A stretch of 64,000 nucleotides of DNA from Escherichia coli (GTDB lineage Bacteria; Pseudomonadota; Gammaproteobacteria; Enterobacterales; Enterobacteriaceae). How positions within the stretch are numbered: the first letter of the stretch is position 1; the number at the start of each line of letters is the position of its first letter. Location of the stretch: the NCBI RefSeq assembly GCF_036507355.1, contig NZ_AP027877.1; one strand, 5' to 3'. The position numbers were made by a program, and so were the translations under genes. Below, piece after piece: positions 1 through 3,138 of this stretch. Under the pieces are notes generated by a model. The model was not told the origin of the DNA, made no database searches, and was given only the letters and a program-made list of their open reading frames with translations.

Positions 1-1641
1 CGCGAACTGGCGGTACAGGTTGCTGAAGCAATGACGGATTTCTCTAAACACATGCGCGGCGTAAATGTGGTTGCCCTGTACGGCGGCCAGCGTTATGACG
101 TGCAATTACGCGCCCTGCGTCAGGGGCCGCAGATCGTTGTCGGTACTCCGGGCCGTCTGCTGGACCACCTGAAACGTGGCACTCTGGACCTCTCTAAACT
201 GAGCGGTCTGGTTCTGGATGAAGCTGACGAAATGCTGCGCATGGGCTTCATCGAAGACGTTGAAACTATTATGGCGCAGATCCCGGAAGGTCATCAGACC
301 GCTCTGTTCTCTGCAACCATGCCGGAAGCGATTCGTCGCATTACCCGCCGCTTTATGAAAGAGCCGCAGGAAGTGCGCATTCAGTCCAGCGTGACTACCC
401 GTCCTGACATCAGCCAGAGCTACTGGACTGTCTGGGGTATGCGTAAAAACGAAGCACTGGTACGTTTCCTGGAAGCGGAAGATTTTGATGCGGCGATTAT
501 CTTCGTTCGTACCAAAAATGCGACTCTGGAAGTGGCTGAAGCTCTTGAGCGTAACGGCTACAACAGCGCCGCGCTGAACGGTGACATGAACCAGGCGCTG
601 CGTGAGCAGACACTGGAACGCCTGAAAGATGGTCGTCTGGACATCCTGATTGCGACCGACGTTGCAGCCCGTGGCCTGGACGTTGAGCGTATCAGCCTGG
701 TGGTTAACTACGATATCCCGATGGATTCTGAGTCTTACGTTCACCGTATCGGTCGTACCGGTCGTGCGGGTCGTGCTGGCCGCGCGCTGTTGTTCGTTGA
801 GAACCGCGAGCGTCGTCTGCTGCGCAACATTGAACGTACTATGAAGCTGACTATTCCGGAAGTAGAACTGCCGAACGCAGAACTGCTGGGCAAACGCCGT
901 CTGGAAAAATTCGCCGCTAAAGTACAGCAGCAGCTGGAAAGCAGCGATCTGGATCAATACCGCGCACTGCTGAGCAAAATTCAGCCGACTGCAGAAGGTG
1001 AAGAGCTGGATCTCGAAACTCTGGCCGCCGCACTGCTGAAAATGGCACAGGGTGAACGTACTCTGATTGTTCCGCCAGATGCGCCGATGCGTCCGAAACG
1101 TGAATTCCGTGATCGTGATGACCGTGGTCCGCGCGATCGTAACGACCGTGGCCCGCGTGGCGACCGTGAAGATCGTCCGCGTCGTGAACGTCGTGATGTT
1201 GGTGACATGCAGCTGTACCGCATTGAAGTGGGCCGCGATGATGGTGTTGAAGTTCGTCATATCGTTGGCGCGATTGCTAACGAAGGCGACATCAGCAGCC
1301 GTTACATCGGTAACATCAAGCTGTTTGCTTCTCACTCCACCATCGAACTGCCGAAAGGTATGCCGGGTGAAGTGCTGCAACACTTTACGCGCACTCGCAT
1401 CCTCAACAAACCGATGAATATGCAGTTGCTGGGCGATGCACAGCCGCATACTGGCGGTGAGCGTCGTGGCGGTGGTCGTGGTTTCAGTGGCGAGCGTCGT
1501 GAAGGCGGTCGTAACTTTAGCGGTGAACGCCGTGAAGGTGGTCGTGGTGATGGTCGTCGTTTTAGCGGTGAACGTCGTGAAGGCCGCGCTCCGCGTCGTG
1601 ATGACTCTACCGGTCGTCGTCGTTTTGGTGGTGATGCGTAA
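1..1641 (+). CDS. deaD: DEAD-box ATP-dependent RNA helicase DeaD (CsdA), 5' end outside the window
   Basis: ORF 31..1641 is in frame from position 1. Translation matches the C-terminal ~535 aa of DeaD as recalled, including the [11 protein letters not shown] repeat tail. Confidence 0.93.
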
Positions 1642-1666
1642 TCATCGCTGAACAGCGAACACAGTC

Positions 1667-1684
1667 TGTAAAATAATATATACA
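1667..1684 (+). promoter_or_regulatory. TyrR-box-like palindrome TGTAAA-N6-TATACA upstream of mtr
   Basis: Sequence tgtaaaataatatataca fits the TyrR box consensus TGTAAA-N6-TTTACA at 11 of 12 positions. mtr is a known TyrR regulon member. Confidence 0.45.
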
Positions 1685-1716
1685 GCCCCGATTTGAACCA
1701 TCGGGGCTTTTTTTCT
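1685..1716 (+). terminator. Rho-independent terminator of deaD
   Basis: GC-rich hairpin gccccgat/atcggggc with a 7-nt loop, followed by a T-run of 8, about 45 bp after the deaD stop. Confidence 0.75.
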
Positions 1717-1721
1717 GTCTT

Positions 1722-1746
1722 TTGTACTCGTGTACTGGTACAGTGC
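1722..1746 (+). promoter_or_regulatory. Putative TrpR operator in the mtr promoter (GTACT repeats)
   Basis: tgtactcgtgtactggtacag contains repeated GNACT half-site motifs resembling the trp operator. mtr is known to be TrpR-repressed. Confidence 0.4.
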
Positions 1747-1794
1747 AATACATAACAACGCAGTCGCACTATTTTTCACTGGAGAGAAGCCCTC

Positions 1795-3039
1795 ATGGCA
1801 ACACTAACCACCACCCAAACGTCACCGTCGCTGCTTGGCGGCGTGGTGATTATCGGCGGCACCATTATTGGCGCAGGGATGTTTTCTCTGCCAGTGGTCA
1901 TGTCCGGGGCGTGGTTTTTCTGGTCAATGGCGGCGCTGATCTTTACCTGGTTCTGTATGCTGCATTCCGGCTTGATGATTCTGGAAGCTAACCTGAATTA
2001 CAGAATCGGTTCGAGTTTTGACACCATCACCAAAGATTTGCTGGGCAAAGGCTGGAACGTGGTCAACGGCATTTCCATTGCCTTTGTGCTCTATATCCTG
2101 ACCTATGCCTATATTTCTGCCAGTGGTTCGATTCTGCATCACACCTTCGCAGAGATGTCACTAAACGTCCCGGCACGGGCGGCGGGTTTTGGTTTTGCAT
2201 TGCTGGTAGCGTTTGTGGTGTGGTTGAGCACTAAAGCCGTCAGTCGCATGACAGCGATTGTGCTGGGGGCGAAAGTCATTACCTTCTTCCTCACCTTTGG
2301 TAGCCTGCTGGGACATGTGCAGCCTGCGACATTGTTCAACGTCGCCGAAAGCAATGCGTCTTATGCACCGTATCTGTTGATGACCCTGCCGTTCTGTCTG
2401 GCATCGTTTGGTTATCACGGTAACGTGCCAAGCCTGATGAAGTATTACGGCAAAGATCCGAAAACCATCGTGAAATGCCTGGTGTACGGTACGCTGATGG
2501 CGCTGGCGCTGTATACCATCTGGTTGCTGGCGACGATGGGTAACATCCCGCGTCCGGAGTTTATCGGTATTGCAGAGAAGGGCGGTAATATTGATGTGCT
2601 GGTACAGGCGTTAAGCGGCGTACTGAACAGCCGTAGTCTGGATCTGCTGCTGGTCGTGTTCTCAAACTTTGCGGTAGCGAGTTCGTTCCTCGGCGTAACG
2701 CTGGGTTTGTTTGACTATCTGGCAGATCTGTTTGGTTTCGACGACTCGGCTGTGGGCCGCTTGAAAACGGCATTGCTGACCTTTGCCCCGCCAGTTGTGG
2801 GGGGGCTGTTGTTCCCGAACGGATTCCTGTACGCCATTGGTTATGCTGGTTTAGCGGCTACCATCTGGGCGGCAATTGTTCCGGCGCTGTTAGCCCGTGC
2901 ATCGCGTAAACGCTTTGGCAGCCCGAAATTCCGCGTCTGGGGTGGCAAGCCGATGATTGCGCTGATTCTGGTGTTTGGCGTCGGCAACGCACTGGTGCAT
3001 ATTTTATCGAGCTTTAATTTACTGCCGGTGTATCAGTAA
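1795..3039 (+). CDS. mtr: Tryptophan-specific permease Mtr
   Basis: 414-aa ORF with multiple hydrophobic helices; matches Mtr as recalled; synteny next to deaD. Confidence 0.92.
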
Positions 3040-3047
3040 TCAGCGGT

Positions 3048-3138
3048 GCCTTATCCGACATTTCTGCTGCCTACACAATGCCTGATGCGCTTCGCTTATC
3101 AGGTCTATGTAGGACAGCGTTGCCAGCTCGGATAAGGC
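3048..3138. repeat. REP/BIME-like nested palindromic element
   Basis: Outer inverted repeat gccttatccga...tcggataaggc enclosing a REP-like core gcctgatgcgcttcgcttatcaggtc. Confidence 0.6.

What the first reader, a model, noticed from the sequence alone, without database searches (positions are those of the whole stretch)
1667..1750. deaD terminator sits between a TyrR-box-like palindrome and the putative mtr TrpR operator
A near-consensus TyrR box (1667..1684) lies immediately 5' of the deaD terminator stem-loop (1685..1716), and the putative TrpR operator follows at 1722..1746. A regulator site abutting a terminator hairpin raises the question of interplay between DNA binding, deaD termination and read-through into mtr.
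Basis: partly seen in the sequence, partly recalled or inferred. Interest (0 to 1): 0.3.

Follow-up and report, generated by a model that had tools for sequence, protein, structure and literature searches.

The report
Known mtr promoter with embedded deaD terminator
This is the well-studied control region of the E. coli tryptophan-permease gene mtr, where the terminator of the upstream gene deaD sits between the TyrR activator site and the TrpR-repressed promoter; the layout is real and conserved but already known.

Summary
The window carries the 3' end of deaD (stop 1639-1641), a 153-bp gap, then mtr (ATG 1795). In the gap lie three elements:
- TGTAAAATAATATATACA (1667-1684) matches the TyrR box consensus at 11 of 12 positions.
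- A 9-bp GC-rich hairpin (1684-1708) is followed by a T-run to 1714.
- GTACTCGTGTACTGGTAC (1724-1741) is a TrpR-type operator overlapping an extended -10 (TGgTACAGT, 1736-1744).

mtr is an established target, activated by TyrR and repressed by TrpR. The published position of its strong TyrR box, 42 bp from the -35 centre, fits this palindrome exactly.

In about 74 Enterobacteriaceae species the order box, hairpin, T-tract, operator is kept. The distance from box start to operator start is 57 bp (56-58), while the flanks vary. The hairpin shows compensatory changes and many G·U pairs that work only in the deaD-sense RNA, so it is a real RNA terminator.

I found no evidence for regulatory interplay between TyrR or TrpR binding and deaD termination. 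The likeliest reading is a compact, insulated arrangement with the terminator filling the spacer of an upstream-activated promoter.

One unexplained point: in Escherichia only, the terminator's 3' half is complementary to the mtr ribosome-binding site.

Novelty: already known. Interest: low.

The parts
1..1641 (+). 3' part of deaD (ATP-dependent RNA helicase DeaD); stop codon TAA at 1639-1641
   Evidence: ORF 31..1641. RefSeq annotation under the match. deaD lies directly upstream of mtr in all 76 orthologous loci with enough flank.
1637..1654 (.). Candidate weak (distal) TyrR box CGTAATCATCGCTGAACA, overlapping the deaD stop codon
   Evidence: 8 of 12 matches with G2/C17 kept; centre-to-centre distance to the strong box is 30 bp. 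Counted as 22-mers, the gap to the strong box is 8 bp, which fits the wording in PMC4374768; this mapping is my inference. It is not conserved outside E. coli.
1667..1684 (.). Strong TyrR box TGTAAAATAATATATACA (activator site of the mtr promoter), lying in the deaD 3' UTR
   Evidence: 11 of 12 to the consensus and unique in the window. Arms conserved as [CT]GTAAA...ATACA in about 74 species. The position fits the published 42 bp to the -35.
1684..1708 (+). deaD intrinsic-terminator hairpin (9-bp stem, 7-nt loop)
   Evidence: Terminator scan. Predicted energy -15.0 kcal/mol. Covariation: 91.4% of cells paired, 6 of 11 pairs with changes on both sides, 0 of 500 shuffles reach the score, slid controls 29-52%. 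G·U pairs fit only + strand RNA.
1708..1714 (+). T7/U-tract of the terminator; it ends where the mtr -35 region begins and may serve as an A+T-rich (UP-like) upstream promoter segment
   Evidence: Sequence. Nearly invariant across species. The UP-like role is inference.
1715..1720 (+). Weak -35-like hexamer CTGTCT (inferred)
   Evidence: 18 bp upstream of the conserved -10. Its centre is 42 bp from the strong-box centre, as published. Poorly conserved across genera.
1724..1741 (.). TrpR operator GTACTCGTGTACTGGTAC (tandem TGTACTNG units 8 bp apart)
   Evidence: Unique pattern match with 0 expected. Direct repeat at 1723-1738. Nearly invariant in all 77 species. mtr is a TrpR target.
1736..1744 (+). 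Extended -10 element TGgTACAGT of the mtr promoter (inferred); transcription start expected near 1750-1752
   Evidence: Conserved as TGGTACA[GA]T in all species aligned. No start-site data could be retrieved.
1781..1786 (+). mtr Shine-Dalgarno sequence GGAGAG
   Evidence: Sequence. CTGGAGA is conserved upstream of the ATG.
1795..3039 (+). mtr, tryptophan:H+ symporter (414 aa)
   Evidence: ORF. RefSeq annotation. 84-99% identical orthologues in 80 species.

Best explanation
The 153-bp deaD-mtr gap is a compact composite of three separately acting, already known kinds of element.

1. TyrR binds the strong box at 1667-1684, about 75 bp upstream of the mtr start. From there it activates the weak -35 / extended -10 mtr promoter by contacting the RNA polymerase alpha C-terminal domain.
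2. TrpR with tryptophan binds 1724-1741, over the spacer and the extended -10, and blocks RNA polymerase.
3. The hairpin plus U-tract (1684-1714) is the Rho-independent terminator of deaD.

The DNA between an upstream activator site and the core promoter needs a set length and helical phase rather than a particular sequence. That lets the terminator occupy this spacer. Its T-run ends exactly at the -35 region, where an A+T-rich tract is tolerated or even helpful. The terminator stops deaD transcription a few bases before the mtr core promoter, so mtr stays under TyrR/TrpR control.

Shown here: the sequences, their statistical uniqueness, their conservation, RNA-level selection on the hairpin and the constant spacing.
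Taken from literature: TyrR activation, TrpR repression, alpha-CTD contact and the 42-bp position.
Inferred: the -10, -35 and start-site assignment, the spacer and insulator logic, and the independence of the three functions.
For: - Identity of the locus.
- The box is unique at 11 of 12 matches, and the operator pattern is unique.
- Canonical terminator.
- Covariation in the stem, with 41 compensatory cells and no shuffle reaching the score. The 44 G·U cells in the per-pair table would be A·C mismatches on the other strand. This points to an RNA made in the deaD sense.
- Box start to operator start is 57 bp in 63 species, 56 in 10 and 58 in 1. By contrast, deaD stop to box varies from 9 to 28 nt and operator to ATG from 48 to 75 nt.
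- The stem/loop partition changes (9+7+9, 10+5+10, 11+3+11) while the total stays 25 nt.
- Literature: strong box proximal to the promoter and centred 42 bp upstream of the -35; activation through alpha-CTD. mtr is in the TyrR and TrpR regulons of Enterobacterales. CRISPRi shows TyrR activating and TrpR repressing additively, with repression dominant.
- No Rfam family matches the region.
Against: - The primary footprint and mutagenesis papers (Sarsero & Pittard 1991; Heatwole & Somerville 1991; Yang et al. 1996, 1997) are not held in the library. Box placement therefore rests on a secondary source plus sequence logic.
- No 3'-end or start-site data for this junction could be retrieved. Termination at 1708-1716 and the start near 1751 are predictions.
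- The constant length may partly reflect a small neutral target for indels (only the 3-7 nt loop and about 8 nt before the operator) rather than helical phasing.
- The species compared are all Enterobacteriaceae and share ancestry.
- Independence of the three functions is assumed, not tested.
Confidence: 0.75

Rival explanations
1. Functional coupling at the DNA level. Polymerases transcribing deaD sweep TyrR off its box and pause or release at the T-tract on the edge of the mtr -35, occluding the promoter. Conversely, TrpR or an mtr open complex only about 10-20 bp downstream of the hairpin acts as a roadblock that alters deaD termination. mtr expression and deaD 3'-end formation would then depend on each other, for example during cold-induced deaD expression.
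For: Geometry only. The box overlaps the stem by 1 nt, the U-tract ends at 1714 and the -35-like hexamer starts at 1715. The operator starts at 1724, within the footprint of a polymerase sitting on the U-tract. The tight juxtaposition is conserved.
Against: No data show any dependence. CRISPRi of tyrR and trpR gave simple additive effects on mtr. The terminator is canonical and strong on paper. Conservation is equally explained by each element's own constraint.
Confidence: 0.13
2. RNA-level insulation in Escherichia. In transcripts that escape the terminator, its 3' arm and U-tract (1698-1718) pair with the mtr Shine-Dalgarno and AUG region (1778-1798). Only mRNAs started at the mtr promoter would then be translated.
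For: A 21-nt inverted repeat. Duplex energy -24.9 kcal/mol, z = -5.8 against a shuffled ribosome-binding region. The MFE and centroid of a model read-through RNA (1660-1830) use this pairing. The promoter-derived leader is unstructured.
Against: It is present only in Escherichia; other genera average z of about -0.3. A U-tract pairing with a purine-rich Shine-Dalgarno is partly generic. The whole-RNA fold is not unusual (z = -0.93). The terminator hairpin forms first during transcription. The pairing was found post hoc.
Confidence: 0.08
3. The palindrome at 1667-1684 is not a protein site but an A/U-rich element upstream of the terminator, and its resemblance to a TyrR box is chance.
For: The chance expectation is not zero: 18 of 100 shuffles of the 64-kb window give at least one hit with one mismatch or fewer. 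Cedecea and Shimwellia carry an A-tract at this position instead of a box.
Against: It lies upstream of a gene experimentally activated by TyrR, at the published distance from the -35. The arms and the G-N14-C pair are conserved while the central 6 bp vary more, across about 74 species. It is the only sequence there that meets the strong-box definition.
Confidence: 0.03

Closest known systems
E. coli K-12 mtr regulatory region (TyrR strong and weak boxes plus Trp repressor operator; Sarsero, Wookey & Pittard 1991; Sarsero & Pittard 1991; Heatwole & Somerville 1991)
   Same: It is the same locus. The box, stem, T-tract and operator are identical to K-12. The strong box lies 42 bp from the -35 centre, and there is a distal weak-box candidate.
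   Different: The only differences are strain-level substitutions in the hairpin loop and at two flanking positions. The comparative view of the embedded terminator (constant 57-bp module, covariation) is my addition, not a different system.
Intrinsic (Rho-independent) terminators of Enterobacteriaceae
   Same: A GC-rich 9-bp stem, a 7-nt loop and a run of 7 U, 43 nt after the stop codon, with compensatory evolution.
   Different: It is nested inside the regulatory region of the next gene. An activator site lies upstream of it, in the 3' UTR, and the core promoter starts at the end of its U-tract.
Upstream (class I type) activation through the RNA polymerase alpha C-terminal domain, e.g. TyrR at tyrP or ipdC, CRP at lac
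   Same: The activator site is centred a whole number of helical turns upstream of the -35 (42 bp here; 33 bp at E. cloacae ipdC). The -35 is weak. The alpha-CTD contact is reported for mtr.
   Different: The spacer between activator and promoter encodes a functional RNA terminator. Whether the T-tract is an alpha-CTD docking site was not tested here.
trp, aroH, trpR and aroL operators of the Trp repressor
   Same: ACTNG-type half-sites repeated at 8-bp intervals and overlapping the -10 region.
   Different: 12 of 16 core positions match the trp operator, by my own comparison from memory of that sequence. At mtr the operator works against an activator-dependent promoter.

Membership tests
TyrR box (strong) | At least 10 of 12 matches to TGTAAA-N6-TTTACA | tested here: met
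   11 of 12 at 1667-1684. Definition taken from PMC4374768.
TyrR box (strong) | Invariant G and C spaced 14 bp apart (G-N14-C) | tested here: met
   G1668 and C1683 are present. Both columns are at least 90% conserved across species.
TyrR box (strong) | Located in the control region of a gene whose expression responds to TyrR | tested here: met
   Lies upstream of mtr. Literature shows TyrR activation. The position equals the published 42 bp from the -35.
TyrR box (strong) | Direct binding of TyrR protein (footprint or gel shift) | not testable with these tools
   The primary papers are not held.
TyrR box (weak, distal) | Fewer than 10 matches, G-N14-C kept, adjacent to a strong box | tested here: inconclusive
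   CGTAATCATCGCTGAACA at 1637-1654 has 8 of 12 matches and lies 30 bp centre to centre from the strong box. It fits the '8 bp apart' wording only if boxes are counted as 22-mers. It is not conserved beyond E. coli.
Intrinsic terminator | GC-rich stem-loop immediately followed by a U-run, downstream of a stop codon on the coding strand | tested here: met
   The stop is at 1641, the stem at 1684-1708 and the T7 run at 1708-1714.
Intrinsic terminator | Pairing maintained in evolution (RNA-level selection) | tested here: met
   6 of 11 pairs have changes on both sides, 91.4% of cells are paired, and the controls are far lower.
Intrinsic terminator | Transcript 3' ends mapped at the U-tract; measured termination efficiency | not tested
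   No usable 3'-end data could be found.
Trp repressor operator | Tandem or palindromic GNACT-type half-sites 8 bp apart, overlapping the promoter | tested here: met
   GTACTCGTGTACTGGTAC at 1724-1741 is unique in the window. The 8-bp repeat is at 1723-1738. It overlaps the TGgTACAGT -10.
Trp repressor operator | Tryptophan- and TrpR-dependent repression of the downstream gene | not testable with these tools
   Supported by literature only.
Upstream alpha-CTD-dependent activated promoter | Activation depends on helical phase between activator site and promoter | tested here: inconclusive
   The spacing is constant at 57 +/- 1 bp in 74 species, which is compatible with phasing. It can also be explained by the constraints of the embedded elements. 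Insertion experiments are recalled from memory only.

The most novel reading that the evidence does not exclude
The terminator is more than a passive spacer. As DNA, its fixed length and T-tract would be part of the TyrR/alpha-CTD activation geometry. As RNA or as a termination site, it would couple deaD transcription to mtr. That coupling could work by polymerase traffic displacing TyrR or occluding the -35. In Escherichia it could also work by the terminator's 3' half sequestering the mtr ribosome-binding site in read-through transcripts.
Probability: 0.1. Interest if true: 0.45.

Novelty: already known. Interest (0 to 1): 0.15.

Why it matters
The value here is mainly a correct label: these are the textbook TyrR and TrpR sites of mtr, not a new motif. 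The modest added point is that an activator site can sit in the 3' UTR of the upstream gene, with a working terminator nested between it and the promoter it serves. This packing has been kept at constant length across many genera. That is a useful caution for automated annotation of promoters, 3' UTRs and operons, and for engineering tight gene junctions. If coupling between deaD termination and mtr control did exist, it would link a cold-shock helicase gene to tryptophan uptake. Nothing yet suggests that it does.

Tried and rejected
- I tried to read the primary mtr papers (PMC212541, PMC208063, PMC207980, PMC207163, PMC178520, PMC179526) and the Cho et al. ChIP paper (PMC3777760 as I recalled the id). 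None is held.
- A full-text search for the exact box sequence found nothing.
- I looked for deaD 3' ends, the mtr start site or read-through in supplements of Adams 2021, Dar & Sorek 2018, SMRT-Cappable-seq and Conway 2014. There was nothing usable; only an internal deaD start site and an antisense start site in mtr turned up.
- The RegPrecise-based supplement lists mtr under TyrR and TrpR but gives no site sequences.
- A ChIP-exo/TyrR search gave no mtr data.
- Rfam gave only sub-threshold chance hits.
- I considered a weak TyrR box inside the hairpin, downstream of the strong box. I rejected it because no G-N14-C candidate there has meaningful arm matches (my own reading of the sequence), and the literature places the weak box distal.
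- I considered -35 TTGTAC with -10 TGCAAT. I rejected it because TGCAAT is not conserved, whereas TGGTACA[GA]T is.
- I considered a DNA cruciform or a minus-strand terminator. I rejected both because the many G·U pairs work only in + strand RNA.
- The promoter-like hit TGAACA-17-AATAAT (1649-1677) would fire straight into the hairpin and is treated as spurious.

Full report
**What is at the coordinates**

The first 3 kb of the window is the E. coli deaD-mtr junction. A 601-bp query around the finding matches 5,425 of 5,426 complete E. coli genomes, under the annotations deaD and mtr. The order matches K-12 MG1655, where deaD and mtr are co-directional neighbours. In the window, deaD ends with TAA at 1639-1641 and mtr runs 1795-3039. 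That leaves 153 bp between them.

- **TyrR-like box:** TGTAAAATAATATATACA at 1667-1684.
- **Hairpin:** AGCCCCGAT-TTGAACC-ATCGGGGCT at 1684-1708, followed by a T-run to 1714.
- **Operator:** GTACTCGTGTACTGGTAC at 1724-1741.

**Are they more than chance?**

- The box is one mismatch from TGTAAAN6TTTACA. It is the only such hit in 64 kb, against 0.19 expected. Two-mismatch hits occur at the chance rate.
- The operator pattern GTACTNGTNNACTNGTAC is unique, with none expected.
- The terminator scan picks the hairpin. Its predicted energy is -15.0 kcal/mol, and it is the dominant structure of the deaD 3' UTR fold.
- K-12 is identical in the box, stem, T-tract and operator. It differs in the loop and at two flanking bases.

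**What the literature says**

The primary papers are not in the library, so I rely on secondary and recent sources.

PMC4374768 gives the definitions and positions:
- A strong TyrR box has at least 10 of 12 matches and an invariant G-N14-C pair.
- mtr has a strong box proximal to the promoter and a weak box distal. Both lie upstream of the -35, 8 bp apart.
- The strong box is centred 42 bp upstream of the -35 element.
- Activation works through the alpha C-terminal domain of RNA polymerase.

Other sources agree on the regulation. Leyn et al. 2016 list mtr in both the TyrR and TrpR regulons of Enterobacterales. A 2025 CRISPRi preprint finds that TyrR activates and TrpR represses mtr additively, with repression dominant.

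The box at 1667-1684 is the only sequence near mtr that meets the strong-box definition. Its centre (1675.5) is exactly 42 bp from the centre of CTGTCT (1715-1720). That hexamer lies 18 bp upstream of TACAGT (1739-1744). The hexamer is preceded by TG, giving an extended -10, TGgTACAGT.

A candidate weak box, CGTAATCATCGCTGAACA (1637-1654), has 8 of 12 matches and keeps G-N14-C. It overlaps the deaD stop codon. If boxes are counted as 22-mers, it lies 8 bp from the strong box. That mapping is my inference.

**Comparative evidence**

A scan of one genome per species returned 80 mtr loci from Enterobacteriaceae. deaD lies directly upstream in all 76 loci with enough flank.

In 74 species a box with at least 9 of 12 matches is followed at once by the hairpin, the T-tract and the operator. 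The lengths compare as follows:

| Segment | Length across species |
|---|---|
| Box start to operator start | 57 bp in 63 species, 56 in 10, 58 in 1 |
| deaD stop to box | 9-28 nt |
| Operator to ATG | 48-75 nt |

The hairpin top evolves freely. Stem and loop are 9+7+9, 10+5+10 or 11+3+11, always about 25 nt in total.

On the alignment, the named structure is paired in 91.4% of cells. Six of its 11 pairs show changes on both sides, and no shuffle reaches the covariation score. Slid controls pair in only 29-52% of cells.

Forty-four cells are G·U pairs. On the opposite strand these would be A·C mismatches. Selection therefore acts on the RNA made in the deaD sense, which is what a deaD terminator requires. 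It argues against a cruciform or a minus-strand element.

The -10 is conserved as TGGTACA[GA]T in every species, whereas the -35 region is variable. That is typical of an activator-dependent extended -10 promoter.

Cedecea and Shimwellia keep the terminator and the operator but have an A-tract instead of the box.

**How it most likely works**

TyrR bound about 75 bp upstream of the start helps RNA polymerase through alpha-CTD. TrpR with tryptophan sits on the spacer and extended -10 and excludes polymerase. The hairpin and U-tract end deaD transcripts right at the upstream edge of the mtr -35.

Because the spacer between an upstream activator and the core promoter needs length and phase rather than sequence, the terminator can live there. 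It also shields the mtr promoter from deaD transcription.

One caveat on the constant length: the only nearly neutral places for indels are the short loop and about 8 nt before the operator. Each element's own constraint may therefore account for much of the length constancy.

**The proposed interplay**

I found nothing that supports it. No 3'-end, start-site or read-through data for this junction could be retrieved. The geometry would allow collisions, because the U-tract ends at 1714, the -35 starts at 1715 and the operator starts at 1724. This is possibility, not evidence.

One unplanned observation bears on read-through. The terminator's 3' arm and U-tract (1698-1718) are complementary to the mtr Shine-Dalgarno and AUG region (1778-1798). 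The supporting numbers:
- The duplex is -24.9 kcal/mol, z = -5.8.
- It replaces the terminator hairpin in the predicted fold of a model read-through RNA.
- The promoter-derived leader is open.

The complementarity is confined to Escherichia, so it may be chance.

**Verdict**

The system is the already characterised mtr control region. The interplay idea is untested and not needed to explain the data. Rfam has no family here. Interest is low. The comparative picture of a length-constant module of activator site, terminator and promoter is a small addition.

Noticed in passing
L082:2550-3300 (E. coli strain 405, NZ_CM132945.1); corresponds to window 1713-1715: In this genome an IS200C element (tnpA annotated) is inserted in the terminator's T-tract, between GGGGCTTTTTT and CTGTCTTTTGTACT. 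This moves the TyrR box and hairpin about 0.7 kb away from the mtr promoter. Eighteen of 5,423 matching genomes lack a single match covering 80% of the module; only this one was inspected.
   Followed up: partly
window 1698-1718 and 1778-1798: The terminator's 3' arm and U-tract are complementary to the mtr Shine-Dalgarno and start codon (-24.9 kcal/mol, z = -5.8). The pairing dominates the predicted fold of a read-through RNA. It is seen only in Escherichia species.
   Followed up: partly
window 1637-1658; L033, L039-L041, L043, L047, L049, L065 just after the deaD stop: Between the deaD stop codon and the strong box, many genera carry a second short palindrome that uses the stop codon. An example is GCGTAAGCCTTACGC in Enterobacter-like species, with GTAAG/CTTAC arms at non-canonical spacing. 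E. coli has TCGCTGAACAGCGA (1645-1658) plus the weak-box candidate. These may be weak TyrR sites or small RNA hairpins.
   Followed up: partly
L055, L062, L068 (Cedecea) and L080 (Shimwellia), upstream of mtr: These species keep the deaD terminator and the TrpR operator at the same spacing. They have an A-tract (GTGATAAAAG) in place of the TyrR box, which suggests mtr is TrpR-only there.
   Followed up: no
window 1649-1677: A promoter-like match, TGAACA-17-AATAAT, overlaps the two TyrR boxes. It would start transcription directly into the terminator hairpin and is probably spurious.
   Followed up: no
window 1111-1157 and 1454-1548: The Arg/Gly-rich C-terminal tail of DeaD is encoded by tandem repeats. 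One has a 24-nt unit in 2 copies. The other has a 33-nt unit in 2.9 copies, encoding [10 protein letters not shown]-like units.
   Followed up: no
window 3048-3138: Downstream of mtr, an 11-nt perfect inverted repeat (GCCTTATCCGA / TCGGATAAGGC) flanks 69 nt that look like REP-type palindromic units, before the convergent yhbW gene.
   Followed up: no
K-12 coordinate 3305003 (+), inside mtr, antisense; roughly window 2609: A start-site table in the supplement of Adams et al. 2021 lists an antisense transcription start within mtr and an internal start in deaD (K-12 3307737, minus strand).
   Followed up: no
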